A stretch of DNA of 64,000 bases, taken from assembly GCA_965178125.1 (NCBI GenBank), contig OZ237767.1, forward strand, positions 62,001 to 126,000. The letters are read 5' to 3'. Made by a program: the position numbers and the translations under genes. Within the stretch, counting starts at the first letter, position 1. Each line of letters begins with the position of its first letter. The notes under the pieces were generated by a model. The model was not told the DNA's origin and made no database searches. It saw only the letters and a list, made by a program, of their open reading frames with translations. This stretch comes from Bilabrum cf. latius. Its lineage: Eukaryota. This document shows positions 1 through 60,781 of the stretch, piece by piece.

Positions 1-1910
1 CGGGATTACGCATGCCAGGCAGTGGGTGATGGCAGACGGCAAACTGAACGGCCTGGGCATTTGTGACCAAAGCACACTTCGAACACCTCTGTCCCACAGT
101 GGAGCGATGCACGGGCGAAGCATCCAGAAGGCCAGAGCACCCAGGCAAGCCAGCACGTGCGGCGTGCTTCTATGAAGCAGTGCGGACTGCACCTGCTCGT
201 CGTCCAAGTCCAAACCAGCACCACCTGAAGAATCATCTGCCTCAGCTATGATCAGGCTAAACTGCATCATGGCCATGGGCATGGCACTGACCGCAACGGC
301 AACAACCAGCCATGCAACGAGCAGAAGGCCGGCGATGGCCGAGCTTGCCCTGCACCAGGTCAGCATGCGATACCCAGTCCCCAGCTGCATCAGCCGTTTG
401 CCCTCTTCCAGCTTCTCCTGAAGCCTCTCTCTCGAGCTGCGCTCCTCGCTGAGCGCACGATCTCGCTTTTGCTGCGTGCTCGCGACAGCAGCGGCAGTCA
501 GGCGCATTGCGACTGAGCGATCGATCCCTTGGCCTTTGAGCATGTATTCGGGCAGACTGCGAGAGGCTGGATCGGGACCAGCACCTGCACTGGGCCGAAG
601 TGGTGACGCAGCGGGTAGTCCGGGTACATCTGAGGGAGCTAATGCCCCTGTCATTGGGTCTGACGACGACGAAGCAGCCGGCTCGCTTGCAGCGTGAGGG
701 GAGCTTGAGATGGAGCCCGTCCGAGAGGACTCCTGTCGCACGACTGCTTGTGTCCGCGAGCATCTGCCTGTTGCTTGATGCCTCCACTGCTTGGTTGGGC
801 ATTCCGATCTGCGAGCCAAGATCGATTGCTCGTTCGCAATATATCCGATCCAGTCCGGCAGCTGCTTGTCCTTGCCTGGTGTCCCAAGATCCATGCTAGG
901 CTTCCTGTGCATTGTGGCCGCTGTCTAGTGCATGCCGATCGCCTTGCCAATCTCGATGCACTCGAGTCTCGCCCAAAGCAAGACAGCATCTCGCAGTTGG
1001 TGGAGAGGAAGCGAAACAAGACATGCCATGGCGACAGGTCGCCCGCCCTCTTCAGCGCCATCCTCGTGGCCTGCGAGTGCGACACGAGGCAGCTCTGAGC
1101 CCGCTTTCTATTCATCTCCTCGATCACTCCTACCAGCGGTGCCGCCATCCAATGCACCTGCCCCGCGGCCCTTCGGTGCTGCTGCAGCCCTGTCGACAGC
1201 CTCGATATCGACGGGACCGTTATGCAGCAAGCCCACGAGGCCTTCCTGCTCCTGGAGGATTCCCCGGAGGGCAACAGCAGCGGGCGAGTCGTCCTCATCT
1301 TTCAGCTCTAGAATTTCACACGGAGAGAGCAATCGTCTGCCCCTTGCCGCTGCTCTCTGGTGCAAGGAGCGGCAGATTACGGCTCCCAGCCTGGTTTGGA
1401 AGGCCAGACACACAAGCTTCTCGGTCTGCCCCGGCAACTGCTGCAGCAACCGAAACAGTTTGTGCTTGTACGACATTTCAATTTGTCCGAATGAAGCTGC
1501 AATTGGTGCTGCATCTGCCAGAGGATCTCTGATCAGTACTGCGAGAACGTGAGCGAGTACCTGAACCCGACGCACCGCAGCAAACCCCCTTAGAGCAGCT
1601 GCAGGCATCTCAGCCCTCTATTGGCTCGATAAATCATACTGGCGCATCAATGCATTGCGCCAGTACGTGTCTAGCAGCTTTGCAGATGATACGCAGCGAA
1701 GAGTTGTACATGTAGCCTCGAGGCGGGCCACGTCTGGCAGCTCCAGCATGTGGTAAATCCTAGCAACAATAGCTGCGACACTTAAGTCAATTTGAGATTG
1801 TACAAGCTTGGCGCAGGATCCTTAGTAATGCAAGTACTGTCTTTGAATTCAAAATGAACCTCACCAGGCTTGAACTGGGTAAATCGCTCCAAGATGCATT
1901 GAGAAGCCAT
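1..1910 (-). CDS. F-box-like N-terminus plus transmembrane protein (family A, paralog 0), runs off the left edge
   Basis: ATG at 1910 and a 44-nt GTGAG..TAAG intron (1864-1821), then one frame open to base 1 apart from TAGs at 1618, 1108 and 925. N-terminus DLSVAAIVARIYHMLELPDVARLEATCTTLR..YW resembles an F-box. Hydrophobic segment near 330-250. Confidence 0.6.
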
Positions 1911-2196
1911 TGTCTCTGTCAAAGCACAGTACAGTCCCACTGATATAGCCGATAGTAATACAAGAGATGTACGGTATCTAACTCAATTTGGCTGCAGGCC
2001 TAGACTAGGCCAAACAATCCAAACCGGATTTTGCCACCATTAATGAATGAAGAAGATAAAACAACGATTTCCGGATTCCAGGCAGTGGAGACAGAGTTTG
2101 CTTCGTTGCTGACGCCACATGAGATGAGCGTCTGTGCGCTCTGTGAAGGTGAGATCACACATTGTACTGCACCCTAATCGCGCAGGCAGACGAACC

Positions 2197-2690
2197 AAAA
2201 CTGGCGAGCGCTGCCCCTCAGCGCCCGAATAGCACGCGGCTTGATCGCCGCTCCAGCCTAGATTGCGACCTCCCAACTTCCACATCTGCATGTGGTCGGG
2301 TGATCTGATCTGATCCTTTGATCTGAGTCACTCATCAACCACACGACCACACCTCCACCTGCCCGGTCTGTGCCTCCTCCTCCCAATCCGCCGTATCAAC
2401 CAGATGACCACACCAATCATCTTCTCCTCGACTACTCCCTTTCCCGGTTGGTTAACCGTTGCCCCACTCTACTCCGCCCTCACTCCCCCCCCCCCCCCCC
2501 CCCCCTCGCCCTTCCCTAGCTGCCGCTCCTGCTCTTCGTCGCTAACCTTGCCTCATTAACCGCGCTCTCTCCCCTTCGCTTCGCCGCGCCGCATCTGATC
2601 CTGCACCTCGAGCGGGTACCGCGCCCATCGCGCGACCTCAATCCCACAAACCTTGTTGACTTCACCAACGGAGAACGCGGCGAACGCCTA
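2197..2690. repeat. Dispersed repeat, inverted homolog of about 11730-12190; contains a poly-C run
   Basis: aaaactggcgagcgctgcccctcagcgcccgaatagcacgcggcttgat... matches the reverse complement of 12190 leftwards; similarity decays through the C-rich/G-rich tract. Confidence 0.75.
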
Positions 2691-2696
2691 GTCACA

Positions 2697-3450: not shown

Positions 3451-6400
3451 TCATCTCGCCTAATCACGCAGCAAGGCCATGAAGATACCAGGCGCCCAGA
3501 ACCACGCCGTCGACTCTAGAAGGGCTTGCAAGCCAGCAAAATTGATTGGCCTTTGCTAGAACTCACTGGTACCTAGCACGCCCGATACTGGCATTGAGGT
3601 CTTGAGTCCTCGCGGGTACCTCGGCATGTCGGCACACGCCCCCACAATCCACCGGTTGATCGTTCCTCGCTCGCGCCATCCAGTACGTAGTCGGGCCAGA
3701 TGCTTCAATACGTGGCTGCATGATACAGATTGAAAGCCAGATGCTGGGGTCGGGTCGCTCGCAGATGCATTCTACTGTGCAGCTGCATCGGCACTAGAGC
3801 AGTCTTCATGGCAGTCCGGTGGCAGCACCTCTGCCAAGTTGTGCACCCGCTGCATCCACTAGAGCCATACAAACCGCGATGTTAACCACTCGTGATGAAG
3901 ATTCGGGTCCCTTGTCGCATTTGCTTGATGCAGCTGTATCAGGCGTACGAGTCGTGCTTTCAATACCTGGAATTTGTCCCGGATCGATGCGCAGATGGAC
4001 CCGATCGGAACTGCTGGCGACAACCACCATGGAATCGCAAAGCTATTGCTCTCAAACACAAATACGATGCCGATCTGCTGACCTTCAACCACAAGTTCTG
4101 TCTGAGACTGGCCTAAGTCATATCGCGAGTTCACGTCGTGCTTGCGATCGACCTCGATCGGCTCCATCGGTTTCATGTAGTACGTCAGGGCCCTTTCAGC
4201 AGCACGCCGTGCTATATCAAGAAGAAGCGGACTATTACAGTACTGCTATGACGCATACAAGACGTAAAAGCTACTATGGGTTACGATCCACGCGGCGAGA
4301 CCCAACAGCCCTGATATTAAGGCCGCATACGCCAGGTCAATCGATGCGAAATGGGCGAGTGCTGTGCCCACACCAAGAAGAAGGAAGACGCAAGTTGGCA
4401 CAATCATGCGTGGTGAGCAGATCAAACCGGTCGAGGGATCCTATGTCACCGTGTGCTATTCCGTAGGGGTCAGCGCACCGCGTGAACTTGACTTGCCGCA
4501 CCTCTTCATGCAGCGCGTTTGCGCCTCGATCACAATGCCAAAGAATCCCAGCATCCACACGGCAAGTCCAGCAGCGATGCCCCACGCCCATGCACCGCCT
4601 GTTGAGAGGCTTGCCATCGATAAAAACGCTAGAAGCCAGAAAGTCAGGGCCAGGCACGCCGTAGTCCAAGGTCCGAAGTGGAACGCGGCTCGATCCGAAC
4701 ACAGCCATCCCACCGGTTCGCTGATACGTACGCTTTGACGCCCCCGTGGATGAGTACCCTCGTCCTCCCCGCGTTGTGCCGATACCCCTGCAGCTAAACG
4801 CGATTTCATTTTTTCGATCATTTGCATATGCCTGGGCACACCGTACAGCGACATCAGAGCAACACCACCCAGCGCAAATCCACTAGCCAGGAAACTGGTG
4901 CCGACTCCCATGTCAAGCGATCGCACGCATTTCATTCGCCAATCAATGTGACCATTCTACTCGGAAACGTTTGCCGCGTATTCCTCAAGACTGTAGTTGC
5001 CAGGCCCTCCTGCAGGAGTGCTCAGTCGTTCACTGACACAGTCTGCTGCGATCCCGACACTGCCGGCAATGCCAAGTGTACAGCACGAAATCGACACGGT
5101 AACTCCGAGGATCAAGTGCAGAGCATGCTGCAGGTATGGGAGCCACGTAACCGCTGTCAATTCCTGAAACCTGCCGATGGCGCGCTTGCTAGAATACTGT
5201 TGCAGCAGCTCCCAAGTACACTCGGACATGATATTGAAATCAGACTCGATACTGCCATGCGTGCATTCGGGCGCTTCCCTGCAAGGTAGCCCACAGTACT
5301 GGTTACCATGGTTCGTGCTTCGCCGGCGTAGGGTGGTGCTGCTAGATGGCTGCTGCGAATGCTGCTGGTGTTGATGCTGCTGATGCTGCAACGTACTTGC
5401 AGCGCTGCCGCGCACTCTGCTTGGCACAGGCCCCCGCCTGCAATAAATAGACGCCATCATAGCAACCGAAAATACCGCTATCAATACAAATGATACCATA
5501 AATAACAGCGAAGATCGCTCAAGAAGTGCAGCCTCGTCGCTCACGCACTCCGAGGAATTGTCAAAACCGTATGCTGCACCTCTATGTGTCACATTTACGC
5601 AACTAGAGTCTAGCCGGCTTTCGTTTTCGTTCAGCTCCTCGACAATTGTTGCCTGAGGTCTCTACTACTCTGCAAAGAAAATTCCAAGAACCCCAAGAGC
5701 AATGACAAAGCACAGTCCGCCGAGTGCCTGCATCCATGCCCGGCACTGCGTCGCGGTGCTCCAGCGGGTCAGCTCGCTCTCAAACTTATTTAAGTGTCTC
5801 CAGCGCCCATACTGACCGGCTCTCAGCTGCAGCTTCTCTTCGATGGCAGGCTAAAGATCAGACATCATGGCCTGCCTTGCATCCAGCACCTCCTTGCGCA
5901 AGCTCTGGGTGTAGAGCGACCAGAGGACGCCAGTTCCATGAAGGAGATAGTGCCCTGGGCCAGTGCTGCGGGCAAGGATTTCTCCATTGTGGTGAGCAGC
6001 TAATGCCCCTTCATCCAGCACTGGATCAATGCACCCTTGATCGATGCTTTGAAGATCAATTGTTGCACTTGCAGTCCCATTCATCCACGGTGGCGTTGTA
6101 CCTGGATGGTAGCTGTTGCCAAGATGCTCAGCTGTGTATTTCGTGGTTCCAATCACGGCATTGCAAACATCCCCACCGCTAGAATTGTTGCTAGAGTCAT
6201 CGCTGGAGGCTTCGCTAGTGTTGTCACTCACTTCTGCGCAGGAGCGTGCGGCATACTTGGTCCGATGGCGCTCCCTCGGAACTCGATACTTCGCTGCTCC
6301 CCTCGGCTCTTGCCAGTGGCCGTGCTGAAGCTCTGTGAGCACAGATAGTCCGCCAGCATCGCAAGCAGCGGTTGGCCTAGTCCTACTGCGCTGCACACCG

Positions 6401-7672
6401 ATACCCGTCGTTTGCTGTCTACTTGCTGAGCTGCCGATCATGCCCTACAGCTCAACTGGGACCACGGGATACGCGCGAGCTGGCTCACACGCCCAGTACC
6501 TCCGGTAGGTGTCCCGGCGACGGCTAGCCTCCAGTTCGATTTGTCTCCACCACCCACCGGATCGCACGTGCAGGTCGCAGCTCCCAGTCTCTGGTAGATG
6601 GGCCAGGCCCTCCTGAATAGACTTGAGCTCGAAGCTGGCCCATAGCAGGAGAGAATCGTGCAGATCGTACGGTGCAAGGGAATGGAGCGTCATGGTCCGA
6701 CGAACTTTGTTCCCCGATGCAGCATGTGATGATGGTATTGGTGAGGGCATTGCTTGACCCTTGGCGGCAACTCCAGAACTACAGCAAGGAGCCGCCGAGT
6801 CTACTCTATGCTGCTATGTCGATGCGACATTGCAAGCGAGAGGCACTCGAAGCATGCTAGACTGCTCGTGCATGACCACCGAGAGCGGCTTTACCCGTGA
6901 ATGTGGGCTATTTTTAGGCTGCCAATAAGCCCCAAGTGATTGTCCGCAACTGTCGCCCTCGCCCACTCCCCAGCCCTTGCCCCTGGTGTTGCTCTCGCCC
7001 TCGACCGAGCTGCTGCTGCGTTGACTACCGCGCCCAAGTTGGGACACGGGGTCATGAACGGCTTCGCCCGGCGAGTTGCACTCCACTACACTGGAGTCAC
7101 GGTGTACGAGGTCCTCAGAAGCTGCCTGGTTGCAGAACTAGTTCCATGCGACAGCGCCGAGCCTTGCCTGTTCGGCCAGTCGATCGGCAGCGAGCTCCCA
7201 AGCCGGCACCGAAGCTAGCAGCGCGAGAACGTCTTTGCTCTATCCATGTGTACGCATGCTGCCATTCTAGTGGATATCGCTAGCGCACCGATCCGGGCGG
7301 GCATGGATGGCGTGCTAGAGGGCCTAGCAGATTCTGGCGAGCAGCTCGAGCCTGTACGACGTTGCAAGCAGCATGTGCTCATGCAGGATTGAGCGCGATG
7401 TCATGCAAGTATCACCCCACGCTTCATCCAAGTGATATTTCCAATAAGAACTCAGCACTGTGCTTTTGCAAAATGCGTGCATGCCTTTGCAGCATAAACT
7501 CATTCGTACAACATCAGCTGGTTGGAGCTGAACAGCCACATTCGCAAGTATGGCTGCGTAGCAAGACAACTAAGAAATTGACAAGAGACCGTAGAAAGAA
7601 ACGCACACGTTGAATCAGATTTACATCCATGAACAAGGTCATACCTGGAAAGTGCAGGAGCAGGAAATCCAT
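3451..7672 (-). CDS. About 1,390-aa F-box-like, multi-transmembrane protein (family A, full copy)
   Basis: ATG at 7672 and a 55-nt intron (7624-7570). Seven track ORFs (7324-7569, 6814-7086, 6445-6750, 5851-6441, 4957-5592, 4456-4935, 3859-4176) share one frame and are separated only by TAG (about 18, including TAG-TAG at 5662-5667). The first TGA is at 3451-3453. Several hydrophobic helices. Confidence 0.8.
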
Positions 7673-8062: not shown

Positions 8063-9383
8063 TCACACCTCTGGCAGATCCTCGCACATCATCAGAGGAT
8101 CCTCACGAATCTCCCCCAGCACACCCACCGCATCCCCCACAGCCACCTCCCAGCAGCCCCTCCCACCGCCATCCCGCCGCTTCAGATACCAGTCCGCATC
8201 CCGCACGCCGTGCGCCAGTGCCAGCACGCACTCTCCGTGGCCTCCAGCACATGCAGCAGTCAGCGCATTCCAGCCCGCCCCATCCGCGGCTTCGTGCCCG
8301 CCAGCTAGCCTGCCCAGCCTCAGGCGCTTGGCCAGCTCCATGGGCCTGCCCTCGCTGGCCATCTGCATCACCATGCCCGCGTCCCTGTGCGCGTCATGGG
8401 CGTGTCTCCAGTGCAGCATGTGTCTCATCCTGCGCCGGAACGGGTTGTAGTACTGCACGCCCCATAGCTCTCGAGGGTCCACACCACGGAAGAGTGCTTC
8501 GAGCAGCTTGGGAGGGTCGTAGCCGTGCTCTTCGAGGGCCTTGGTCATGACTGGAATGAACGTGCATGGCTACTGGTGCCTCTTAGCCATCATGCGAGGG
8601 ACCCAGGGAAGCTGCTCGAGCAGGAGCGACATGTGGGTGCGATCCATGCATTCAATCCACTGTCTGAGGATGATGCCGGAGTGAAGAATGGCTGCAGTTC
8701 GCCTTGAGCTCGCCCACGGGTCATTATCGAACGTATATTTGAAACCAGACTCAATGAATGCGTAATGTATATAGCTGCTGCTCTGCTCATCCTGCGCAAC
8801 AGGAACTCAATTTGGACACCGACACGCATACAACTCCTTCGCGACCGCAGTCCAGTACTTAGGCATCATACCACACTTACAGAATACATCATGAAATACT
8901 TTCTCCTGAAAAATAGCATAAGCTCGAAGGACTCCTGCTGTCCGCGAGTGAATTCGAACAAATCAGGCATATATCCATTCCATTCCTTCTCGATTCGTCC
9001 ATGATCTTCACCGTACTCGTGGACTGCCTTCGTATATGCTTTCTAGCTCTCTATACGGTGCTGTTTGTTGCACGCAAGCTCGAGCAACTCAGCAGGTGCA
9101 GCCCACACCTGCTCGGCCATCTCGAGGTTATACTAGTGCTGGTCGCCACGAATGCTCTGCGCGGTTTGCAGGCTGTCTCAATCTTGATAATAATGGTTGC
9201 TTCCAATGTGTGATTCGCAAAACTTCCCGCTGAAAAACTCACCGAATCTTGCAGTAGAAGCCGGCTTGCCGGTCGGCAGCAAACGGTTAGCAACTCAATG
9301 GACTGAGGCAATTTGTGGGCATCCCTACCGCTAGCCTCTACGATTTTAGATATGGAAGAACACCTTCTGGCAAACGGATTCAT
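8063..9383 (-). CDS. Uncharacterised intron-containing gene (family B, copy 1); 5' exon structure unresolved
   Basis: Near-identical to copies at 24521-25839 and 34729-36048. Last exon ...WVPRMMAKRHQ(TAG 8570)PCTFIPVMTKALEEHG...CEDLPEV ends at TGA; GTAAGT donor near 8879. Confidence 0.6.
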
Positions 9384-15931: not shown

Positions 15932-16059
15932 CTGTTTGCTCGCGAACGCTCAGCTAACCAATTTGTAAGGCTATATTTCATGATTTTAGAATTACAGTTT
16001 TCTGTTGCGACCATTGATGATCATTAACCAACAGGCAGCAAACACAACTGAACACCACC

Positions 16060-23670: not shown

Positions 23671-23673
23671 TTT

Positions 23674-39876: not shown

Positions 39877-40047
39877 CCCTGCAAACTGTCAGATCTGCAC
39901 CCAAATTGGGAAGACCAGTCTGTATTGACATTAAACACGCGTTACATACTAAATAGCTTCATCTTTATTTAATGTATCCACTCGTCACATGGACATTCGT
40001 GGTCCAGGGGTGGGTCTGATTTTTCCGCCTCATAACCACAGCACAGG

Positions 40048-49300: not shown

Positions 49301-49965
49301 GCGATGTCGGCCACAAGCTCTGGCATCGCACCCACAGTCCCGTTGTGCCGGTACAGCTCCCTGCCTATGTCCCCTCCGAGATTCAATGCCATGTAAATCC
49401 ATCCAGGAGAGCTGCTTGCCCTGTCTATGCTGCTCTAATACACGCACAGGTCTGACGGTTGCGAATCTTCGAGGCCTTGCACGGCGTCAACAACGAGGGT
49501 TGCGTTGTAGCCTGGATCGTTGGGGCCGGCCTGCGGGTCGACAAAGAACAGCTCTCGACCAAACAGCTCGTCCGTTGCGGCAAAGTAAAGGAGCCCATTG
49601 AACGGTGTGAGGTGCAATGGGGAGCTGCTTTCTGCTCCAGGCATCGCGTCACCGGCCATGCGGAGAGTGCGACCATCAAACGCGAAGAGCTCCGTGCCGT
49701 GCGACCTCGATTCGGCGCTGATCCACAGGAAGCCACCAAAATCCACCATTTCTGTCTACACCGAGACATCAGCTACAATACTGGCACCTCCGATCCCAGT
49801 AGTATTGGCTGCAGCCAGCTGCCGACTGCCCGACGATGGAGTAGTTGGCACGTGGCTCAAAGCAGAACCTACCTGAGTCCCAGAATGGCGGGCTGCAGTC
49901 TAGCTATATGCGCTAGCAATTGTTAACCCTACAATGAACCACATGGGGGGTACAATACCGGGCAT
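46360..49965 (-). CDS. Secreted-type ELWxxDGT-repeat protein with a Ser/Thr/Pro stalk and multi-TM C-terminus (about 1,200 aa)
   Basis: One 3.6-kb frame with 11 TAGs (49900, 49756, 49435, 48982, 48460, 47959, 47908, 47752, 47431, 47125, 46645) and no TAA/TGA until TAA 46360. Signal peptide; repeats HGTELFAFDG, FGRELF, IGRELYRHNGT, AGSELYCYNGT. Confidence 0.88.
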
Positions 49966-50998
49966 TTGAGGCTATATCACGGAGTTTGTGGACCGACGTG
50001 GTAATCTTGTGGTTGGTGTCCAACTGCTGTTGTGCCATACTCCGTACCCCATAGAACCAAGTGCCAGAATGTATGGTCCTGCACTTCGAACAATAAATGA
50101 AAGATCACCAACCCGATAAAGTATGCGCTAAATCGAGCCAGAACGGAGCACAAAGGCCGAAATATTTAACGCGTGCACCGTTGGATCAATGGCAGCTTCA
50201 CCTAGTGCTGGCGTAAAGTTTGCCGATAGCGGTGTGAGTAGTAGTGCAAGCTGTGATCTTGTCGATTGTACGAATGATCAATCAACGGAGAGGAAATCAA
50301 GCGCTGTTCTATTCAACGTTTCCGGTAGCCGTTATGGCTCCGAGTGCCATAGACGTGTGTTCAGGTCATCGGCCCAAACCACAGGCGACCCGGTTGGGTT
50401 CGTGCAGATGAACGACGTATCCGGCAACCACGGATTCCAGACATTGAGGCCCCTCCTCAAGCCCCCACGTCAGTTCGGTGACTCGCCGGAGCCCCTCAAA
50501 GCCTCGGACCTCCGAGTCAGATGCCCGGCTGACACGTCCGGTTGAAGCCTTGCTGCCTAGAATAGTCAATCCGATTGTGTAAGGTGCCTGCTCGCCTGGC
50601 CCATGGGCAAACAGAGGGGATTCATTGATCCCTTGCATGCCTGCTGTGACGACTGGTTGTGTAATTCCTTCCTTCCGTTCTCGCTCACAGGTCGGTCGGT
50701 CGGTCGTTCAGTTTAGACGTGTCACGGATGCGCCAGAAGGCAGCGGGCAGTTGCCATAGGACCGAGTGAGTACCGCTCTAGATCCAGCTACGAGGCGAAC
50801 CAGCTCTCACCCTAGACCTGCCACCCTCACTGCTCCCATCACCCGGTATTCGCACTAACACTTGTTGCATGCAATGCATACGAGAAAGTAGCACGCTATG
50901 TACACCATGGTGGACGCTGTGTCCACCATGGTAGACGGATCGCCTCATTTGCGTGCTACTGCCTGGCTCCACCACTAAAAAGTCAGATATAAAAAGGT

Positions 50999-51597
50999 TC
51001 AGCCGAGGAAATCGTCCTCTGGTGTTGACTGGGACGCCTAAGGTGTGATACCACCGCTCGCAATGCACATAAATACTCCTACTATAACTAAGAACGGAAC
51101 TACTGCTATCTGCAGCATCTGCGCAAACGCACTTTGGACCGCTTCGCAAGCCTCTCTATTTTCGACGCCTTGGATGCAGGCAGTGTCCTGCTGCGTGTCA
51201 ATCGTGATCCCATAGATTAAGCTTATGAGCCCAAGAAGCATGTATAATACGCTATGCTGCGGATTGCATTGAAAACGGTGCAATTATGATTGAGAAGGCT
51301 TGGGAGGACATCTGCGACTTGTGGAATACGCGCACAGCTACCATGGCTCACCACAATCACAGTATAGTACTCGCGCCGAAGTGCGGCACTTGAAAGATCC
51401 AATGATACCAATGTAAGCGCCATGCTCCAGCTAATACCAATCCAGTTTCGCACAAAAATGGCAGCCACAATCCCGATTACAACGCCCGTCGCACCGACGG
51501 CTCGAATCATAGTCACGGCGACATCTTGAACAAGTTTCTGGGCGCGATCCACGCAAGAACGTAAATACCCGCAGCATCCCACCGCGGAGCTACTCAT
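50999..51597 (-). CDS. Small multi-TM hypothetical protein (about 167 aa)
   Basis: Phase-0 intron 51351-51257 joins two hydrophobic ORFs; TAG at 51038, then ASQSTPEDDFLG and TGA. Confidence 0.65.
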
Positions 51598-51698
51598 TTG
51601 CCGTTGATTTTAGATATTGTGCGAGTGAAACACTGCTGTTTGGTTACGACCGCTCCGCCGACACGCTCTCCAAAGGCAACTGCAGTCAACAACTCGGC

Positions 51699-54600
51699 AT
51701 GGACGTCCAATTTTCAGCACGTGCACGTGAGTTTTGCCTCAAAAACACTGGGTGCCGGTTGACCTCGGCTGCTGATAGCGTCCGAGGTAAAGGAAGAGGC
51801 GTAGTCGCCGCCAGGGACATTCAAGCTGGGGAAGTAGTGCTGAGTGAAGTGGCACTAGCATGCTCACCGCTGCTGCAGTCTGCGTCACAGTCTGCTTCAC
51901 GAAGGCCAAGGTGTTCTTCATGTCGATCGGACGCACGCGTGGGTGGGATTCGTTCAAAGTCGTCCCCCCAGGTGATACCAGCGTGCCCTGACTGCGCCGA
52001 CTGGATTGTCCAGTCCGGCTTCGTCGAGTTCCTGCATCGCGAGACACAGTTTGCAAAAGATAATCAGCACGCGCTTTCGGCCGAGCTGGCCGCGCAAGCG
52101 TGCCTCGCTGCTCGCCTGCTGTGGCATTTGGCGAACGACGCGACGCTCGCACCGGCCTCTGGGGCGAAGAGCAAGGTGGCCGGAGCAGCTGTTTCCGCCG
52201 ACATCGCCGGATCATAGGCCAGTGGGACGTCATATGCCGAAGGAGACGCAGGCCCGTATTTTCCTGTAGTCGACGATGTTGCGCTCATGCAGACGTTCTC
52301 GGAGGGCAGCGTGCCGGCCGGCATCACGCACGCAGATGTAACCCGCAAGTTCCGCGAGTCCAAGGGGGGCAGGGTCGGAGGCGTGGAATCGGACGCAGCG
52401 GAGGTCTCCAAGGCCCTCGAGAACCTTTCCAAGCAGCGACTTCCCGTGGTGCAGCGCGCTGCGGTGCTGTTGCTCGTGGGCAGCCAGCCCCGGGGCAAGG
52501 GCGGTGCCAGGGCGCCGCCGCTGGTGCAGAGGGAGTGGTTGCGGGCGCTCAGGGAGGCAAGCGGTGTGACGAGTGATGTAGATGGTGTGACGAGTGAGGA
52601 GTCGGCGTCGCTGCCGGAGGTACCAGGCGTGCCCGAGGTTGTCGTCGAGCCGGGCTCCGCAAGTGGCGGCGGCGCCGCGCACACGCTGGCTCAGGACGCC
52701 GCACTGCTGAGCCGACTGATCCTGGCATTCGACCTGAACAACTTCGCGGCCACGGGGGACGATCTCAGCCAGCACTCTGACGCCGTGTGCCCCTTGCTGG
52801 CCGCCCTGAACCACGACTGCTCCCCCAACTGCGCCGTGGAGTGGGCCGTGCTACCTCCCCCAGAGGGGGCGACCGAACCCGGGAAGGAACCTTCGCTGAG
52901 CAGGGCCAGACTAGTTGGTCGCATGCGGGCGTTGAGGAACGTTCGTGAAGGCGAGGAGCTGACGCACAGCTTCTGCGACCCCACCGACGACGTGGTGTCC
53001 AGGGCGGATCGGCTGGCGCACCTGCACGGCTTTGCCTGCGCGTGCGACCGGTGCGCGGAGGGTGTGACGAGTGCGATGTGCGCTGGCATGCCGCCGGTGC
53101 ACGGCTGGGCGGGGAAGGAAGAAGCCGCCCTCCGTCGCGTGCTGGAGGGCGAGGGTGCATTGCATGGAGGTGCTACCTCCTCGGAGCGAGACCTCGGGCG
53201 GTGGGCCGTGGATGTAGCCGGGCAGGTGTTTGCCATGGATTGTGCTGCTGGTGCTGGTGCGGACGCTGCTAGTGGTGACGCGGGTGGTGATACTGAGCTC
53301 ATCCGCATGGTTTCACTCGTCACACCAGGTGATGGGAGCTCACCGAGGAGGAGGCCGTTCGGGCCGCTGCTGCCTCTTTTGCCGCCTTTGGAAGCAAGGT
53401 CCTCGGTGGCAGCGGCGGGCGCTTCGGCGGATCCGTCGGCTTGCTCCTCGGCTGCTGAAGGGCAGTCCTCGCCATTGCTTCAGACCTCGAGGGATGCAGC
53501 ACCTGAGCCAAAGGCGGGTAGCAAGCCGAAAAGCAAGGGCAAGAGCAGGGGCAGAGGCAGGGGCAGGAGAGGCAGGAGGGGCAAAACGGCAGGGGCATCT
53601 GCATCTGCAATGTCCTCCTCATCCCCGTCGTCAGAGTCGCCAGCGTCGGCATATGCCCCATCTGCAACCTCCTCTGCCTCCACTGCAACCGCCAAGGATC
53701 TGTCAGCAGACCTGGACAAGGCGTGGTCCATCCTGCGGCGGGGCGCCGAGGCGGCCGCCCTCTCCTCTCAGTCGGATGCCGGGGAGATTCTCGGGATCGT
53801 AGGGGCGCCGTGTGTTCCCCAGGGAACAAAATCGAGGTGCCTGCGGACCCACGCAGCGCTGTGTCACACGGCCAGGCAGGTGTTCATCAAGCTCATGCCC
53901 GACGATGACGATGACCAGGAGGACGAGGAGCGCAAGCGGAAGGAGAAGGAAGATAAAAGCAAGGGGAATGGGGAGGCTGCCGGCGAGCCGTCCGGAGCCG
54001 ACGATAAAACCGGAAGAGGCAAATCCTGGTCGGCCGGGCAGGTTGCCATCCTGTCACTTGCGGCAGGCCACATTCGTAGGGCGGGCCAGCTGCTCGACTC
54101 AGCGGGAGAGGAGATGCGAAGGAGCAGTCAGGGAACAAAAGCATGGGCCTGGGCCGCGGAACAGGTGGGTAAAGTGGCGACAGGTTCCGCTGCGGCGTCG
54201 GCGGGTGGCACTTCGGCCGAGAGCACCGGTGCAATGGAGTCTGGAACCGGATCCACCTCCGAAGATCGGATCAAGGTGTGTTCTCTGGGAGAGGGTATCG
54301 ACCCGCGGGACGCCATGACTGCCCTGCGCGTGCTGGAGGGAGTTTCGGTGTGCCAGCAGGCCGAGAAGGCCATGTCGCTTGTTGCAACGAGGACGCAGTC
54401 GCTGTGCGAGGCGGCGGGAGTGGCCCTGTGGATGTTCGTCACAGCGAGGATATGCCTCCTGGTGTCAGGGGTGTCGCCCACGTCTGCACTGGGGGGATCC
54501 ATGGCCAAGGCAGTGCTCGACGAGGGGCTGCTTTGCCTCTCTGCTCAGCAGAGGCAAGGGTCGTACGGGGTGCTTGCAGCGGGTGTGAAGGGGGTGCACG

Positions 54601-54833
54601 GGGGCGTGAACGAATGGGTGGACGCATCCATGGGAGCGTGGGTCGGAGCTGGGATGGCCTCGTGCCACTCGTCACACCCCGCGGTACGGATTCGCGCCAC
54701 TGTGATGAGTGAGGCCAGGGCGATGATGGCAGCGAGCAGGCTGGGAGATGCGCTCGGCGGCGGCGGCGGGAATGCATCCAAGGGGGAAGCGGCAGGGGCA
54801 TCTGCAGCGGCGACACCAGGCGCCGAGAGATGA
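51699..54833 (+). CDS. SMYD-type split SET-domain lysine methyltransferase (about 1,044 aa)
   Basis: KGRGVVAARDIQAGEVVLSE, a degenerate CxxC..CxxC, LNHDCSPNC, GEELTHSF and post-SET GFACACDRC. One TAG (52215) joins the two SET halves; TGA stop. Confidence 0.88.
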
Positions 54834-55322: not shown

Positions 55323-57722
55323 TCAGAAGCCGCCGCCTGAGCCCGTCCCCGGCCCGCCCATCGACCCGTACCCAGCTGGCATGCCCGCATCCGCTCCCGC
55401 GCCAGTGGGCGTATCTCCGCTCATCGCTGCCTGCCCGCTGCCTGTTCCCGCGGGAGGCCCAGCACCGGCACCGCCCCTGCCCGACCCGCCAGATCGCGCG
55501 CCGCCTCTACCTGACCCTCGTGCACTGCCGCGAAGCGTCCAGTCGGCGGGGAGGCTCCTCGGGTTGTACACGGCGATCTCCTGCACCACGAGTTCGCGAA
55601 TGTTCTCTCGGTTCACCTCGGGGAACACGATCCGCCGAGGGGCGTTGATCTCGTCCTTGGGCCTGCGGATGGTCTCGAAAAAAGGATGCGCCAGCGCGGC
55701 GTCCACCCGGATTCGATCCTCGGGTACGAACCGCAGGAGCCGCTGGAGGAGATCCAGCGCATCGTGACCCGCCCTCGGATATCTGGCCGTGAGATCGATG
55801 GGGTGCCTGGGCCTGAGTCTCCTGAGCCACTCCTGCGCCTCCACCGTCCTCACCTTGGCGATTTCCCTGTCCACTGGGGTGCCCATGACATCGAAGATGA
55901 CCTGCAGCTGGTCCTGCTTCGCCTTGGAAGAGGCCCTCCGGTCGGGGTTTCCCCTAGAGAGCGGGTAGCATGACCCCCCGGGGAAGAAGGCCTTGCGGTT
56001 CGTGATCTGCCCTGGCCTCCCCGATGGCAGCATGGTCATGATCTCTGCGTGGATGCACCCGACCGACCACACATCGATGGCAGCTGTGTACAGCCCGTCG
56101 TTGTAGAGGGGCAGCTCGGGTGCCCTGTACCAGCGGGTCACCACGTGCTTCTGCGGGGAAGGGCATGGAAAAGGGGGGCATGGGGGGGAGGGGTTGTGGC
56201 GTCCCTCTTGGCAGCTGGAATACGGGATGGAGTAGCACAGATCTGCAGTCGACAGCTATTTCACAACGATGCAAGGGGACGTGTAAGGCAGGAAGGCCCT
56301 GCCTCTCATTGTTGTCGTGTATACTCGACACGCGATGCGGTTGCATTGTGCTTGATCGTCTCGAGGGGGTACGTAAGCACGCTGTGTGACGTGTGCACGC
56401 GGTGTCACATGCCCAATGGGAAGCGATCCGGGGGAGCAATAGTCGAACAGGTCACCGATCTCACCGTCATCTATCTCTTGATTGGGCCCTTCGAGCGCGC
56501 CTCTGCAGCCACAACTGGGCCCGAAGCACCTGCTCCGTCCATGGGAGCAGCACCAGCCGAGCCGGCCTCTGAAGCGATCGTGTTGTCCTGGTCCACACCA
56601 GCGAAAGAAGAGGCCATATCCTCCGTGACGCTGCTGGAAACGGGCCTTGCCAGGCCAAAGTCGCAGATCTTCAGGTCGCAAGCTTCCGTGAGCAAAATGT
56701 TGGCGGGCTTTAGGTCACGGTGGATCACTCCAGCCGAGTGGATGTACTTCATGCCGAGCAGGAGCTGGTACAGGAACCAGCGGACGTGCTGCACTGTCAG
56801 TTCCTGGTCAGTATCTTTTATAAGTTTTCCCATGTCGGTATCTAGTAGCTCGAAAACCACGTAGAGGTCACTGAACGTGCTAGGATCAGACGGCAGCTGC
56901 AGGTGCGTCAGCTTCACCACGTTCGGGTGGTCGAGCTCGCGCAAGATCCTAATCTCCCGGTAAATGCGCTTCGCATTTTCAAAAATATCAAACACTCCGG
57001 GGATGCGCTTGATCGCAACCTTCTGCGGAGAGGGACCGCTTCTGGGGCGATGGTCGAGTGCCTCCACAACCGAGCCGTACGAGCCTGCGCGATGAAGCAA
57101 GCAATTAAGTCAATGAAAGGAAGTGATTTATGAATACAATCTAGTTGACTTGGTGCAAATATGAGCCAGAATGGACAAGGGGAAGGTTTCCCCGTTCTTG
57201 CCAGCCAGATCCCCGCAGCACAATGCTCATTCGCCCCGGAAAACAAGCAGCGGTTCGTGGTATGACCGTAATTTGCAATGATCATGCAAACGGTTCGGCC
57301 TGTACGGATACTGCCCTGGTTTACTCCTTAACGCAGACATAGATGCACCAGCTGCCGAGCGACCGGGCCAAGGGGCAGCAGACACCCGTCTCACCTTTTC
57401 CAACAAGCTTCTTCAGCTCAAATCGAGTAGTGTCAATTTCCCAATCACGAAATTGAGATGGCAAGCGGAAATGGTGAGCAGAAGAGGATGGTGCATGGCC
57501 CGAGTGCCCCGGGCCAGCGCCGGCGTATCTCGGGCCACTGCTATCGTCTACCATCGCTGCGCCAGTCCCACTGGGGGGATCTCCTGGAGGATCCTCTCCC
57601 ATACTGCCATGATCAGGTGGAGGACCGCCTCTTGCAGCCATGGCTCTCGCATCCTCAGGATCAGCGCGAGGAGTCGGCGTACGTATTCCCAGTGCCTCAT
57701 CTGTCTCCATACGCTCGGACAT
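55323..57722 (-). CDS. Mitogen-activated protein kinase with atypical TKH activation motif (about 591 aa)
   Basis: Exons 57722-57395, 57084-56465 and 56150-55323. Motifs GKGSYG, VAIKRI, HRDLKPANIL, DFGLAR and KR(TAG)MTKHVVTRWYRAPE; TGA stop. Confidence 0.93.
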
Positions 57723-58079: not shown

Positions 58080-58121
58080 CCTCCTCCTCCTCCTCCTCCT
58101 CCTCCTCCTCCTCCTCCTCCT
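58080..58121. repeat. (CCT)n microsatellite just downstream of the PH-domain gene
   Basis: About 13 perfect CCT units. Confidence 0.9.
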
Positions 58122-58133
58122 GCCTTTGGTTCC

Positions 58134-60781
58134 TCAGACGGACCTCACGGCTGCCAGCCAGCGCAGCATCTCTCCCACGGATTCGAGGCAGAGTGCGGTC
58201 ACTCGCCCGGGCGCTGCGATGGTGATCACGTACGGCGTGGGCAGCGCCGCCCGTAGGCCTACCGGTGGACCGACGGTTGCAACCGCTCCGTCAAGCAGGA
58301 GCTCTCCCTTGCAGTTGCTCCGATCTTCACCCTTGTAGTAGGTCGCCCGCCCCAGGATCGGATCAAGGCACACGAACCTTCGCTTGAAGTCCTCTAGGCC
58401 GGAGCCCGTCTTGTGAGCCCAGCCGCTGAGCTCCCCCCCCTGCCGCGGCGCGTGGTCTGTTCCCTGGAGGGCGAGTTCGAGGTCCGGCTCGGGTAATTTA
58501 GCTCCGAGTCGTATGGTGGCGAGCAGCTCCAGGAGGGCGGGCTCGGTGCGGGTGCACAGCATTGCGGTGCGAGGGCGCACCATCGCGGCTGTCCGGGCCC
58601 GGGCCCTCTAGTCGTAGCCCCCTGGTTGGGGGCCTATGGCGTCATGATCCCCGGGGGAAATCCCCTGGGGCCCCTCGTCGGGGTCGGTCCCCGCCCCTAG
58701 GATGCCACCGAGGAACGAGCGCACCATCTGCATCCCCGACTTGCCAGCGGCGGGCCCCTCCTTGCTTCCCTCAGCTCGGTCTCTTGCCCCCGCCCTATGC
58801 ATGGAGTCTTCCCGTTGTCCTTGTCCGCTGCTGCTGCTTCCCTGTGTCTCTTTCCCCGCGACGTGCTGTTCCCCGCGAGGCATGGGGGACACTGCCTGCA
58901 CCGCAGTGGCCCGCATGTGCACAGGGGCCTCATGGCATGGGCACGCCTGAACACCCCGCAGCGGTAGCAAGATCTCCAGAGCCCCGGAATTGGGATTTCC
59001 GTCGCTGGCAGGGTCATCTGCCAGCGGGTCTCGATCCCCGGCGCCGTCGTCCTCAACCACTCGCAGCAGACCGACTCCGGGCAGGACCTCCAGGCGGGCC
59101 TCCACCCATGACCACCCGTCCACCGATGCATTGATGCCTCGTGTGACGAGTGCCGGCTCCATGGGGTGGATGTGTGCCCTGGGGAACACGCTTAGGATCC
59201 TCGATTCAAGCCTCAGCAGCGATCGCAGCACGTGCGATGCGGGTCCACCTCCAGCCTCGGTGGAGGCGCTCTTCGCAGTGCCTGAAGCACCACTGCCTGA
59301 AGGCGCCTAACCAGAGCCAGAGCCAGCACCGCCAGCCGCAGCCGCTGCAGCAGCCGCAGCTCGTACCATGGGGTTAGCCTGCTCTATTGTCAGGCTGCCT
59401 CCCGCCATGCCCGCGACGTCCTTCGTGGACTCGGAGCCGAAAATCGGCCCCCCTCCGTCATGAGCAAACAGCACTCGGGATCGGCTGGGCAGCGGTGCTC
59501 CCGTGACGGTCTTGCTCCCTTGCGGTCGGGGTGCTTGCGAACGTTCCTTAAGAGTTCGATGGGCCCTGGTCACGGCTGCGTGCCAGGCGCGCCTGTCTTG
59601 CTTGGTGTCGAAGCACAGCGCCGTGGCCCTCTCCCGCGTGACGAGTGCAAATGAGTGATCGGTGCGCATGCGCTTGGCTACTTTCGATTCCAGGTCTGCG
59701 AGTGGCTCGATCGTGGCAGCGAGATGAAGCACGCCGTATGGCTTGCTCTGCACTCCGTACTTGTCCAGCGAGGACAGCGGGCTGTCGCCGTAGTACTCAA
59801 GGGCACCGGATCGGAGCAACGCACCGAACCTTCGCTTCGAGTTCGCCACGGAAGAGGCGTCTGTTTTGCTCTTGCGGAACCAGCCCTGGTGCAGGATACT
59901 CGCCTATGACAGCTGCTGGGTTGCAGAGGACCCTGCTCGCTCCAAGCCGGTCGCAAGCTCCTACACGAGCTCGATCAGCCGCTGCCTCGCGATAGCTGCC
60001 TTCCCACTCGCGTCCGCTGGAGCGTGTATAACCCTTGAGACTCTCCCTCCCAGGGGGAGATGCCACTGAGTTTCTTTGGTTCCGTGTTTCTAGAAGAACT
60101 CCACGCCGTCGGACCGAATGACATGCTTCCAGCGACCTGCGCTGTGCAGTGTCAGGCTGTGGAGAGGTCCTACTGCGTGTAATGGAGAAAGTATGATTGC
60201 AGTTGCGGTTGCGGAAGTGCTGCCCGAAGCGTTGAATCGCGGACTTTGTGCTTGAACCTGCAACGCTGACAGTGCCGCAAGCTGTCGGCATTTGGTTCGT
60301 CTAGCTCACAGAATTTAAACTCCTCCGGCCTTTCTTCCGCGATTGAATATGCGTCGGAAACCTAGTCGTGCTCAACAAATATCATTTTGCCTGTCATTTG
60401 ATGCAATAGAACTGCGCCAACAGGTGCTCGATGGATGTGAGCATCCTGCGGGGCGAGCTCTGACGCCTCTGCACCAGCCATAGGCTACGATGAAACAACA
60501 AGCTAATCTTCACGAGCAGGCAAACCATCCCCGGTTTTAACGTGATTGTCGTCAGAATCTTCTTCATCGGGAGCGACAGCATCATCGCTGTCCGACTACT
60601 CTTCGTCCTCCGGTGCTTCTGAGCCGCTGTCTTGCTCAAACATAGCACCCTATTGTCCTGATAAATCATACGTACTGTCAGTTTCCGGCATAGTTGACGG
60701 ATCTGCGTCGACCTGTTCAGGATCTCTGTTGCCGATAGACTCTTCAGAATCACCAGAGTTCACGCTCGAAGCATCCGACAT
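58134..60781 (-). CDS. Multi-PH-domain protein with an acidic N-terminus (about 836 aa)
   Basis: Probable intron 60309-60173; 10 TAGs. PH motifs ILHQGWFRK..KRRFGALL..LEYY..DRRAWHAAV and LSGWAHK..FKRRFVCL..TYYK..KGELLL..EMLRWLAAV; TGA stop. Confidence 0.8.

What the first reader, a model, noticed from the sequence alone, without database searches (positions are those of the whole stretch)
1..60781. Non-standard nuclear genetic code: UAG reassigned to a sense codon (Gln) while UGA and UAA remain stops
Seen directly: every recognisable gene on both strands is cut only by in-frame TAG, and the protein continues in the same frame afterwards. Counts are GH2 5, ELWxxDGT genes 2 and 11, kinase fusion 3, SET 1, MAPK 1, PH 10, F-box-like about 18 and RT 4, more than 60 in total. 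Random pseudogenisation would also give TAA, TGA and frameshifts. Inferred gene ends use TGA (3451, 8063, 42524, 46132, 50999, 54831, 55323, 58134) or TAA (13895, 36511, 46360), never TAG. Established knowledge: UAA and UAG are nearly always reassigned together in nuclear codes. UAG-only reassignment is known from very few lineages (the fornicate Iotanema spirale UAG=Gln, a rhizarian UAG=Leu, some ciliates) and corresponds to NCBI table 15. Inference: this GC-rich genome looks like none of those, so it may be an independent, undescribed origin.
Basis: partly seen in the sequence, partly recalled or inferred. Interest (0 to 1): 0.97.

Follow-up and report, generated by a model that had tools for sequence, protein, structure and literature searches.

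The report
UAG read as glutamine in protist
This stretch comes from a GC-rich single-celled eukaryote, apparently a relative of the flagellate Cafeteria, that reads the stop codon UAG as glutamine and keeps UAA and UGA as stops, a rare change to the genetic code.

Summary
Under the standard code 1 ORF reaches 600 aa; with TAG as sense there are 10, and with TAA as sense 1. About 9,800 codons of recognisable genes hold 52 in-frame TAG, 0 TAA and 0 TGA.

Three runs from two studies hold intron-less, spliced contigs that keep the TAGs unchanged. This rules out introns, editing and a base-calling artefact of one data set.

An independent metagenome contig (L001) carries orthologues of three window genes and shows the same TAG-only interruption. 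In window/L001 codon alignments TAG pairs with CAG in 9 of 9 highly conserved contexts, and behaves like CAG/CAA and unlike seven other codons. L001 has TAG at columns where homologues have Q in 90 of 101 and in 35 of 40.

UAA is not sense: 0 seen against 15.9 expected, and the GH2 gene ends with TAA exactly at the family's C-terminus.

The closest named relative, from one gene only, is Cafeteria. Seven literature searches found no stramenopile with this code. The tRNA-Gln(CUA) and eRF1 could not be examined because no genome is held.

The code type is known (Iotanema, some ciliates); the lineage appears to be new.

The parts
36511..39888 (-). GH2 beta-galactosidase-like gene (P0003, 1,125 codons). 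It has 5 in-frame TAG and no intron, and ends with TAA at 36511-36513.
   Evidence: Pfam Glyco_hydro_2_N, Glyco_hydro_2_C and Glyco_hydro2_C5. Homologues of 1,053-1,059 aa cover 100% of the read-through protein at 46-47% identity. The TAA lies at the family's C-terminus.
21436..23850 (-). Truncated paralogous GH2 copy with 2 in-frame TAG, ending in TAA.
   Evidence: 96.6% DNA identity to 36388-38741. TAG and CAG swap between the two copies at codons 650 and 760, and TAG is shared at codon 807.
42904..46134 (+). Nucleoside-kinase-like / PfkB fusion gene (P0004). In-frame TAG at 44299-44301 and 45214-45216; ends with TGA.
   Evidence: Pfam PfkB and NCBIfam PRK09270-type kinase. The L001 orthologue ends at the same alignment column with TGA. 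One X5 contig with 0 other letters covers the gene.
46360..50277 (-). ELWxxDGT-repeat gene (P0002). It has 13 TAG in the ORF, 12 of them after the first ATG, and ends with TAA.
   Evidence: NCBIfam TIGR04534. X5 pieces cover 10 of the 12 TAGs and X6 pieces 12 of 12, unchanged.
40799..42526 (+). Second ELWxxDGT-repeat ORF, ending with TGA. TAG at 40991 and 41360, both upstream of its first ATG; its 5' structure is unresolved.
   Evidence: NCBIfam TIGR04534.
50999..51597 (-). Small membrane-protein gene of 167 codons. Intron 51257-51351, 1 TAG at 51038-51040, TGA at 50999-51001.
   Evidence: Contigs lacking the intron in X5, X7 and X8; coordinates.
51435..54833 (+). SET-domain gene (P0005). One TAG after the first ATG, at 52215-52217; ends with TGA.
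   Evidence: Pfam SET. The TAG is covered by X5 and X8 pieces with no change.
55323..57722 (-). MAPK gene with a TKH activation loop. Introns 56151-56464 and 57084-57393; 1 TAG at 56471-56473; TGA at 55323-55325.
   Evidence: Pfam Pkinase on both exons. Contigs of X5, X7 and X8 skip both introns, with GT..AG ends on the coding strand, and keep the TAG.
58134..60781 (-). PH-domain gene. Intron 60173-60309, 10 in-frame TAG, TGA at 58134.
   Evidence: Pfam PH. The joint appears in one X5 contig, and the frame runs on across it.
3451..7614 (-). It has 19 TAG in a 1,387-codon ORF free of TAA and TGA, and ends with TGA.
   Evidence: No Pfam family. Among 1.84 billion representatives only two fragment hits, 259 and 100 aa at 72-73% identity, each listed as seen on one contig of 5,493 bp.
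1..1821 (-). 3 TAG.
   Evidence: Its likeness to P0001 was judged by eye from the two translations, not by an alignment.
13895..15949 (-). Identity unknown.
   Evidence: No Pfam or NCBIfam family.
8063..8806 (-). Ankyrin-like 247-codon ORF. This is one of three copies; the others are at 24521-25264 and 34729-35472. TAG at codon 79 here, CAG in both other copies.

Best explanation
The window is nuclear DNA of a GC-rich, gene-dense, intron-poor eukaryote in which UAG is an ordinary sense codon for glutamine. UAG makes up about 13% of Gln codons in these genes. UAA and UGA still end translation.

Shown here: the TAGs are in frame, kept in mature mRNA, under purifying selection, interchange with CAG, and are shared as a phenomenon with a related organism.

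Inferred from established knowledge of such codes (passages of PMC5304391): a tRNA-Gln with anticodon CUA reads UAG but not UAA, and eRF1 has lost or weakened its recognition of UAG while keeping UAA and UGA.

On one gene, the organism is closest to the bicosoecid stramenopile Cafeteria. That would make this an origin separate from all published UAG-only lineages.
For: 1. TAG-only interruption. In 9,799 codons of 15 ORFs or spliced CDS there are 52 TAG, 0 TAA and 0 TGA. P is about 1e-16 under random nonsense mutation. The read-through GH2 is covered 100% by full-length homologues.

2. RNA. Contigs of X5, X7 and X8 (two studies) skip 51257-51351, 56151-56464 and 57084-57393, with CT..AC ends on the + strand. 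That is GT..AG on the coding strand. The only other letter reported in 17.5 kb is 56638 A>G, in X7. The listed pieces cover these TAGs unchanged: X5 14 of 26, X6 19 of 26, X7 2 of 26, X8 2 of 26. The MAPK TAG lies in the spliced contig of all three RNA-like runs.

3. Independent relative. L001 (9,496 bp) has GH2, kinase-fusion and MAPK orthologues. Its longest ORFs are 287 aa under the standard code and 1,123 aa (13 TAG) and 703 aa (4 TAG) with TAG as sense.

4. Purifying selection. Differences per codon position 1/2/3 are 0.26/0.17/0.58 (GH2), 0.40/0.36/0.69 (kinase fusion) and 0.16/0.12/0.61 (MAPK exon 3).

5. The amino acid.
- The partner of TAG is CAG in 11 of 18 sites with at least 6 of 14 flanking identities, and in 9 of 9 with at least 10 of 14.
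- With TAG masked as X during alignment, its partner is a Gln codon in 7 of 14. The same figure is 42 of 72 for CAG and 7 of 10 for CAA. For other codons it is GAG 4 of 93, TCG 3 of 43, AGC 2 of 40, AAG 0 of 47, CTG 1 of 91, TGG 0 of 41 and TAC 0 of 53. The BLOSUM62 sum is best for Q (37), next E (22).
- L001 has TAG at the MAPK alpha-E column (a helix name I recall, not from a call). Q stands there in 90 of the 101 hits that matched the motif, out of 120 hits. L001 also has TAG at GH2 column 506, where Q stands in 35 of 40 homologues.
- Window TAG at GH2 238: Q is the commonest residue, 18 of 40.
- Paralogues swap TAG and CAG at 3 sites.

6. UAA and UGA are stops. TAA is seen 0 times against 15.9 expected if it were used like TAG (P about 1e-7). 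Reading TAA as sense adds no long ORF. The GH2 TAA lies at the homologues' C-terminus. The kinase-fusion TGA is at the same column in the window and in L001.
Against: - No tRNA gene is in the window or in L001, no genome is held, and eRF1 was not seen. The mechanism is therefore inferred. No protein-level evidence exists.
- Several TAG columns are not Q in relatives. GH2 124 has T or S in homologues and TCG in L001. Kinase-fusion 466 pairs with ACC. The MAPK column is S in 3 of the 6 closest hits and Q in the other 3. P0001 positions 1053, 1058 and 1123 face R, K and Y in fragment P0272. These are variable positions.
- The tool itself labels X5 'RNA? (probably DNA)' and X7 and X8 'RNA?', as guesses. 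It also warns that contigs drop rare variants.
- Two genes have a TAG 3 and 13 codons before their TGA. An additional stop role for some UAGs cannot be excluded, because an ORF read through TAG hides such ends.
- The placement near Cafeteria rests on one kinase and an unfinished quick tree.
Confidence: 0.92

Rival explanations
1. The genes are decaying pseudogenes, or were hit by a CpA>TpA (RIP-like) mutation process that makes TAG from CAG and TGG.
For: TAG and CAG differ by one transition, and paralogues differ at such sites. Part of the window is duplicated DNA.
Against: - There are 0 TAA, 0 TGA and no frameshifts in 9,799 codons. Random nonsense mutation would give TAG only about half the time.
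- Third-position differences far exceed first- and second-position differences between the window and L001.
- TGG never pairs with a Gln-type codon or TAG (0 of 41).
- The genes appear as spliced transcripts.
- GC is 53-65% throughout, so the DNA is not AT-enriched.
Confidence: 0.02
2. The TAGs are removed or changed before translation, by introns or U-to-C editing, or they are a systematic sequencing error for CAG.
For: Introns do exist here: 4 joints with GT..AG ends on the coding strand.
Against: - The contigs that lack the introns still carry the TAGs. Only one other letter is reported in 17.5 kb, and it is not at a TAG.
- Runs of three further studies give the same letters.
- A separate metagenome contig, L001, has TAGs of its own at other positions.
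- Real introns here run into TGA or TAA quickly; for example the exon-2 frame ends at 56408.
Confidence: 0.02
3. UAG is sense but codes another residue (Glu, Ser or Leu, as in other lineages), or both UAG and UAA code Gln (the table-6 type, as reported for Amoeboaphelidium).
For: Some TAG columns hold S or T. TAA is rare in GC-rich DNA, so its absence could partly reflect base composition.
Against: - Partner codons: CAG 7 of 14, TCG 2, GAG 1, and no Leu codon.
- Conserved-Q columns carry TAG in L001.
- CAA is used 81 times, so TAA was expected about 16 times and was seen 0 times.
- A TAA ends GH2 at the conserved C-terminus.
Confidence: 0.03
4. The code is ambiguous: UAG is Gln inside genes but also ends some genes, depending on context (Condylostoma- or karyorelict-like).
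For: A TAG lies 3 codons before the TGA of P0001 and 13 codons before the TGA of the small membrane gene. Reading ORFs through TAG cannot reveal TAG ends.
Against: All 3 ends that homology anchors are TAA or TGA. With TAG at about 0.6% of codons, one or two TAGs within the last 15 codons of some 14 genes is what chance gives.
Confidence: 0.06

Closest known systems
Iotanema spirale (Metamonada, Fornicata): UAG=Gln, with UAA the main stop
   Same: It has the same codon table: UAG is Gln, and UAA and UGA are stops (abstract and passages of PMC5304391). The same mechanism is expected: a tRNA-Gln(CUA), which reads UAG and not UAA, plus an altered eRF1. For Iotanema the paper reports a T32G change in the GTS motif of eRF1.
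   Different: It belongs to a different supergroup and is an anaerobic endobiont known from a transcriptome. Here there is a GC-rich (53-65%) genome whose MAPK groups with Cafeteria. The eRF1 and tRNA of this organism were not seen.
Ciliates with UAG-only=Gln: Protocruzia tuzeti and two phyllopharyngean lineages (NCBI table 15 type)
   Same: UAG is Gln while UAA is not reassigned to Gln (passages of PMC11687900).
   Different: The window's MAPK does not group with the one ciliate sequence in the tree (Stentor). That ciliate genomes are mostly AT-rich is my recollection, not a result of a call.
UAR=Gln codes (table 6): Amoeboaphelidium protococcarum, hexamitin diplomonads, some ulvophytes, oxymonads, many ciliates
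   Same: A stop codon becomes Gln, presumably through a tRNA-Gln with a mutated anticodon (passages of PMC5304391, PMC6299283 and PMC11687900).
   Different: In those codes UAA is also Gln. Here TAA is absent from 9,799 coding codons and ends genes.
Other UAG-only reassignments: rhizarian exLh (Leu), Scotinosphaera (Ser), Oligohymenophorea sp. (UAG=Glu, UAA=Lys)
   Same: UAG and UAA have different meanings (passages of PMC11687900).
   Different: The amino acid differs. Here the evidence points to Gln.
Cafeteria (Bicosoecida, Stramenopiles), the closest named relative
   Same: The top MAPK hit among 5.8 billion proteins belongs to a cluster holding Cafeteria roenbergensis proteins, at 69% identity. 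In the tree the window and L001 are sister to the clade holding it, with SH-aLRT 97.
   Different: The Cafeteria MAPK is filed as a full 453-aa protein and has Q at the window's TAG column, so that gene needs no TAG read-through. Whether Cafeteria uses the standard code genome-wide was not tested here.

Membership tests
Nuclear code with UAG=Gln and UAA/UGA as stops (NCBI table 15 type) | In-frame UAG inside conserved, expressed genes | tested here: met
   There are 52 TAG in 9,799 codons. The read-through GH2 is covered 100% by homologues. The TAGs are kept in spliced contigs.
Nuclear code with UAG=Gln and UAA/UGA as stops (NCBI table 15 type) | UAG corresponds to Gln at conserved columns | tested here: met
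   TAG pairs with CAG in 9 of 9 highly conserved contexts. With TAG masked, its partner is a Gln codon in 7 of 14, against at most 7% for seven other codons. L001 has TAG at columns where Q stands in 90 of 101 and in 35 of 40 homologues.
Nuclear code with UAG=Gln and UAA/UGA as stops (NCBI table 15 type) | UAA is not used as a sense codon | tested here: met
   TAA is seen 0 times against 15.9 expected. Reading TAA as sense adds no ORF of 600 aa or more.
Nuclear code with UAG=Gln and UAA/UGA as stops (NCBI table 15 type) | UAA and UGA end genes at homology-anchored C-termini | tested here: met
   The GH2 TAA is at the family's C-terminus. The kinase-fusion TGA is at the same column in the window and in L001, and the MAPK ends with TGA in both. 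Only 3 genes could be anchored in this way.
Nuclear code with UAG=Gln and UAA/UGA as stops (NCBI table 15 type) | A tRNA-Gln with anticodon CUA | not testable with these tools
   No tRNA gene is in the window or in L001, and no genome is held.
Nuclear code with UAG=Gln and UAA/UGA as stops (NCBI table 15 type) | eRF1 N-domain altered so that UAG is no longer recognised | not testable with these tools
   eRF1 is not in the window, and no genome is held.
UAR=Gln code (table 6) | Both TAA and TAG in frame at Gln positions | tested here: not met
   No TAA in 9,799 codons although CAA is used 81 times.
Codes with all three stops as sense, or context-dependent stops (Condylostoma, Blastocrithidia, Amoebophrya) | In-frame UGA and UAA as well as UAG | tested here: not met
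   No in-frame TGA or TAA. A context-dependent stop role for UAG itself remains inconclusive.
UAG=Leu or UAG=Ser codes (rhizarian exLh, Scotinosphaera) | TAG aligned with Leu or Ser in orthologues | tested here: not met
   The partners of TAG are TCG in 2 of 14 and no Leu codon. CTG pairs with a Gln-type codon or TAG in 1 of 91.
Bicosoecida (Stramenopiles) as the source lineage | Phylogenetic placement with bicosoecids on several markers or on 18S | tested here: inconclusive
   One marker only. The MAPK's best hit is the Cafeteria cluster, at 69% identity. The quick ML tree gives SH-aLRT 97 for (window, L001) with (P0127, (Cafeteria cluster, P0149)). The GH2 and kinase-fusion searches gave no informative named neighbour.

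The most novel reading that the evidence does not exclude
This would be the first stop-codon reassignment in a nuclear genome of a stramenopile. It would be an independent origin of the rare UAG-only (Gln) code in a Cafeteria-related clade with at least two members, the window organism and the organism behind L001. The genome is GC-rich, so UAG cannot have been lost first through AT pressure. Identical DNA and spliced RNA occur in runs of four studies, so a living strain is probably in culture. It could serve as a tractable model for how eRF1 and tRNA-Gln(CUA) separate UAG from UAA.
Probability: 0.5. Interest if true: 0.8.

Novelty: new member of a known kind. Interest (0 to 1): 0.7.

Why it matters
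UAA and UAG almost always change meaning together. Only a handful of nuclear lineages are in print with UAG alone reassigned (passages of PMC5304391 and PMC11687900). Another origin, in a different supergroup and in a GC-rich genome, tests ideas on how such codes arise. Codon loss under AT pressure does not fit a genome where TAG makes up about 13% of Gln codons.

It also matters in practice. Standard-code gene callers cut these genes to pieces. The P0001 family appears among 1.84 billion protein representatives only as two fragments. Proteins of this organism and its relatives in public collections are therefore probably truncated, and they may be filed under other organisms' names.

Tried and rejected
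- The whole genome is not held. No genome-wide codon profile, tRNA-Gln(CUA) search, eRF1 inspection or 18S placement was possible.
- tRNA and Rfam scans of the window found nothing. ARAGORN with introns allowed found nothing in the window or L001.
- The look-up of sequencing runs listed no holder on record as RNA. The RNA nature of X5, X7 and X8 is inferred from their intron-less contigs. Parts of the laid stretch without listed cover, such as the PH gene in X5, X7 and X8, say nothing either way.
- The homologue search with the kinase fusion P0004 gave 1 hit, at 25% identity, which did not help with taxonomy.
- The representative search with the first 1,200 aa of P0001 gave only 2 fragments. 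Their residues at three window TAG columns (R, K, Y) are uninformative because the positions are variable.
- Cluster look-ups gave names for few hits: Cafeteria roenbergensis; Symbiodinium sp. KB8 for a sequence beside Cafeteria; diplonemids and a choanoflagellate for GH2.
- My recollection that Amoeboaphelidium was a UAG-only case was wrong. Papers report TAG and TAA both as Gln.
- A green-alga origin, suggested by MAPK hits at about 55% identity, was rejected. Those hits are TDY-type paralogues and fall outside the TxH clade.
- The careful tree search did not finish within the time limit; only the quick tree is reported. In that script the L001 row lost its exon-2 part through a slicing error, so L001 filled 42% of the columns.
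- In one search the small membrane gene was counted on the wrong ORF. One search gives the right one (167 codons, 1 TAG). The totals change by at most one TAG.
- Supplements of papers were closed. The eRF1 alignment figure of PMC5304391 was not seen.

Full report
WHAT IS IN THE WINDOW

The window is 53-65% GC. Under the standard code it has 1 ORF of at least 600 aa. With TAG read as sense it has 10 (1,387, 1,305, 1,132, 1,125, 1,076 aa and so on). With TAA as sense it still has 1. Reading TGA as sense also opens long frames (11 of at least 600 aa). These lie in many overlapping frames on both strands and carry up to 29 TGAs each. TGA is simply the commonest stop triplet in this DNA.

The frames opened by TAG are recognisable genes:
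- A GH2 glycosidase, a nucleoside-kinase/PfkB fusion and a SET protein.
- A protein kinase and a PH-domain protein.
- Two ELWxxDGT-repeat proteins.

IS THE INTERRUPTION REALLY TAG-ONLY, AND IS IT MORE THAN CHANCE?

Counted from the first ATG, 15 ORFs or spliced CDS make 9,799 codons, with 52 TAG, 0 TAA and 0 TGA.

The count is not circular for genes whose extent is set by homology. The read-through GH2 (5 TAG) is covered 100% by homologues of 1,053-1,059 aa at 46-47% identity.

From the codon make-up of these genes, random nonsense mutation would give TAG only 49-52% of the time. P(52 of 52) is then about 1e-16.

ARE THE TAGS IN THE mRNA?

Four runs from three further studies were laid on 42900-60400. 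X5, X7 and X8 (two studies) hold contigs that skip 51257-51351, 56151-56464 and 57084-57393. One X5 contig also skips 60173-60309. The skipped parts have CT..AC ends on the + strand. That is GT..AG on the minus strand, where those genes lie. With those parts removed, the MAPK, PH and small-gene frames close up.

These contigs are therefore spliced RNA, although the tool only guesses 'RNA?' and marks X5 'probably DNA'. The X5 pieces are gene-sized and differ in depth from gene to gene.

Across 17.5 kb the only other letter reported is 56638 A>G in X7, which is not at a TAG. The listed pieces cover these TAGs unchanged: X5 14 of 26, X6 (long, DNA-like contigs of a third study) 19 of 26, X7 2 of 26, X8 2 of 26. 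The MAPK TAG at 56471-56473 lies in the spliced contig of all three RNA-like runs.

Introns, RNA editing and a base-calling artefact of a single data set are thus excluded for these genes. One caveat remains: contigs drop rare variants.

AN INDEPENDENT RELATIVE SHOWS THE SAME THING

A scan of metagenome contigs with MAPK exon 2 found L001 (9,496 bp, 55% GC), which is 78% identical over all 206 residues. It carries orthologues of three window genes in similar order: GH2 (70% identity over 628 aa), the kinase fusion (39% by BLASTP) and the MAPK (about 80%).

Its longest standard-code ORF is 287 aa. With TAG as sense it has ORFs of 1,123 aa (13 TAG) and 703 aa (4 TAG). TAA or TGA as sense give 322 and 362 aa.

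Differences between the window and L001 concentrate at third codon positions: 0.26/0.17/0.58, 0.40/0.36/0.69 and 0.16/0.12/0.61. The frames that carry the TAGs are therefore under purifying selection.

WHICH AMINO ACID?

In window/L001 codon alignments, the partner of a TAG is CAG in 11 of 18 sites with at least 6 of 14 identical flanking residues, and in 9 of 9 sites with at least 10 of 14.

I repeated this with TAG masked as X, so that the alignment could not favour Q. The partner of TAG is then a Gln codon in 7 of 14. The figure is 42 of 72 for CAG and 7 of 10 for CAA. It is 4 of 93 for GAG, 3 of 43 for TCG, 2 of 40 for AGC, 0 of 47 for AAG, 1 of 91 for CTG, 0 of 41 for TGG and 0 of 53 for TAC. 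The BLOSUM62 sum is best for Q (37), then E (22).

L001 has TAG at two strongly conserved glutamines:
- The MAPK column in the ...LYQ... motif. Q stands there in 90 of the 101 hits that matched the motif, out of 120 hits. The helix name 'alpha-E' is my recollection.
- GH2 column 506, where Q stands in 35 of 40 homologues.

For the window's own TAGs:
- GH2 238: Q is the commonest residue, 18 of 40. GH2 760: Q is the commonest, 11 of 40.
- The MAPK TAG faces CAG in L001, and Q in 19 of 40 TxH-type hits.
- Paralogues swap TAG and CAG at GH2 650 and 760 and at codon 79 of the ankyrin-like ORF.

Against this, some columns are not Q:
- GH2 124 has T or S in homologues and TCG in L001.
- GH2 16 lies at the variable N-terminal end.
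- Kinase-fusion 466 pairs with ACC.
- The MAPK column is S in 3 of the 6 closest hits.
- P0001 positions 1053, 1058 and 1123 face R, K and Y in fragment P0272.

All of these are variable positions. CAG sites also face non-Gln codons in 30 of 72 cases.

UAA AND UGA

CAA is used 81 times and CAG 265 times. If TAA were used relative to CAA as TAG is relative to CAG (ratio 0.196), about 15.9 TAA would be expected. None is seen (P about 1e-7).

GH2 ends with TAA exactly where its homologues end...DSFLG against ...DFQG and ...DFVG. The kinase fusion ends with TGA at the same column in the window and in L001, and the MAPK ends with TGA in both.

No gene end could be shown to be TAG. Reading through TAG would hide such ends, and two genes have a TAG 3 and 13 codons before their TGA. 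A minor, context-dependent stop role for UAG is therefore not excluded. I give it about 6%.

MECHANISM (INFERRED)

A tRNA with anticodon CUA reads UAG but not UAA. This was shown for Tetrahymena tRNA-Gln(CUA). eRF1 must also lose its grip on UAG; Iotanema has T32G in the GTS motif. Both points are from passages of PMC5304391. Neither the tRNA nor eRF1 could be examined here. There is no tRNA gene in the window or in L001, and no genome is held.

WHO IS IT?

The best of 5,318 MAPK hits belongs to a 90% cluster that holds Cafeteria roenbergensis proteins, at 69% identity.

A quick ML tree of 47 rows puts the window and L001 together (SH-aLRT 100). It makes them sister to (P0127, (Cafeteria cluster, P0149)) with SH-aLRT 97. 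The Emiliania, Triparma, Stentor and green-algal rows fall elsewhere. The careful search did not finish, and the L001 row was incomplete.

This is one gene. The other searches gave no informative named neighbour. I take 'a stramenopile near the bicosoecids' as likely, about 0.6, but not shown.

WHAT IS KNOWN, AND IS THIS NEW?

From passages read in PMC11687900, PMC5304391 and PMC6299283:
- UAG-only=Gln is in print for Iotanema spirale, Protocruzia tuzeti and two phyllopharyngean ciliate lineages.
- UAG=Leu is in print for a rhizarian.
- UAG=Ser is in print for Scotinosphaera.
- UAR=Gln is in print for Amoeboaphelidium and others.

The code type is therefore known.

Seven full-text searches (and a term search within a 2024 stramenopile overview) found no report of a nuclear stop-codon reassignment in a bicosoecid or any other stramenopile. 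That library lacks most subscription journals, and supplements were closed.

VERDICT

UAG=Gln with UAA and UGA as stops: confidence 0.92. It is a new member of a known kind of code. It probably arose independently in a lineage where no such change has been described (about 0.5). Interest 0.7.

Noticed in passing
window 15927-25900 and 29238-39000: There is a segmental duplication of about 10 kb at 83-97% DNA identity. It includes a truncated second GH2 copy (21436-23850). A third copy of one sub-segment lies at 7224-9459. Each of the three carries a 247-codon ankyrin-like ORF.
   Followed up: partly
window 17881-19819 and 31192-32656: These are tandem arrays of a unit of about 69 bp that stay open in three or more frames on both strands. 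One frame reads as an acidic, Glu- and His-rich repeat protein. No Pfam family reached its curated score.
   Followed up: no
window 61833-62957: Another tandem-repeat ORF (374 codons, no TAG), with repeat copies 83-86% alike. Only weak Pfam matches below the cut-off.
   Followed up: no
window 42900-60400 (runs X1-X8): Eight runs hold the stretch or part of it, filed under four organism codes in four studies. In the four runs that were laid (X5-X8, three studies, three organism codes), one other letter was reported in 17.5 kb. One strain may be filed under several names, or be a co-cultured or contaminant flagellate. In the same vein, a MAPK next to Cafeteria's in the tree sits in a cluster with a protein filed under Symbiodinium sp. 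KB8.
   Followed up: partly
window 55323-57722: The MAPK has a T-K-H activation-loop motif instead of T-x-Y, preceded by an Ala/Gly/Ser-rich insert. The TxH type is shared with the Cafeteria, Emiliania and Triparma hits.
   Followed up: partly
window 3451-7614: The gene richest in TAG (P0001) has, among 1.84 billion protein representatives, only two hits. They are fragments of 259 and 100 aa at 72-73% identity, each listed as seen on one contig of 5,493 bp. This fits a relative's gene cut at its own TAGs by a standard-code gene caller.
   Followed up: partly
window 53917-53950: Contigs of X5, X7 and X8 all carry the same 32 extra letters at a backward joint (53950 to 53917) inside the SET gene. 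This may be a length difference in a low-complexity stretch or an assembly effect (table 5c).
   Followed up: no
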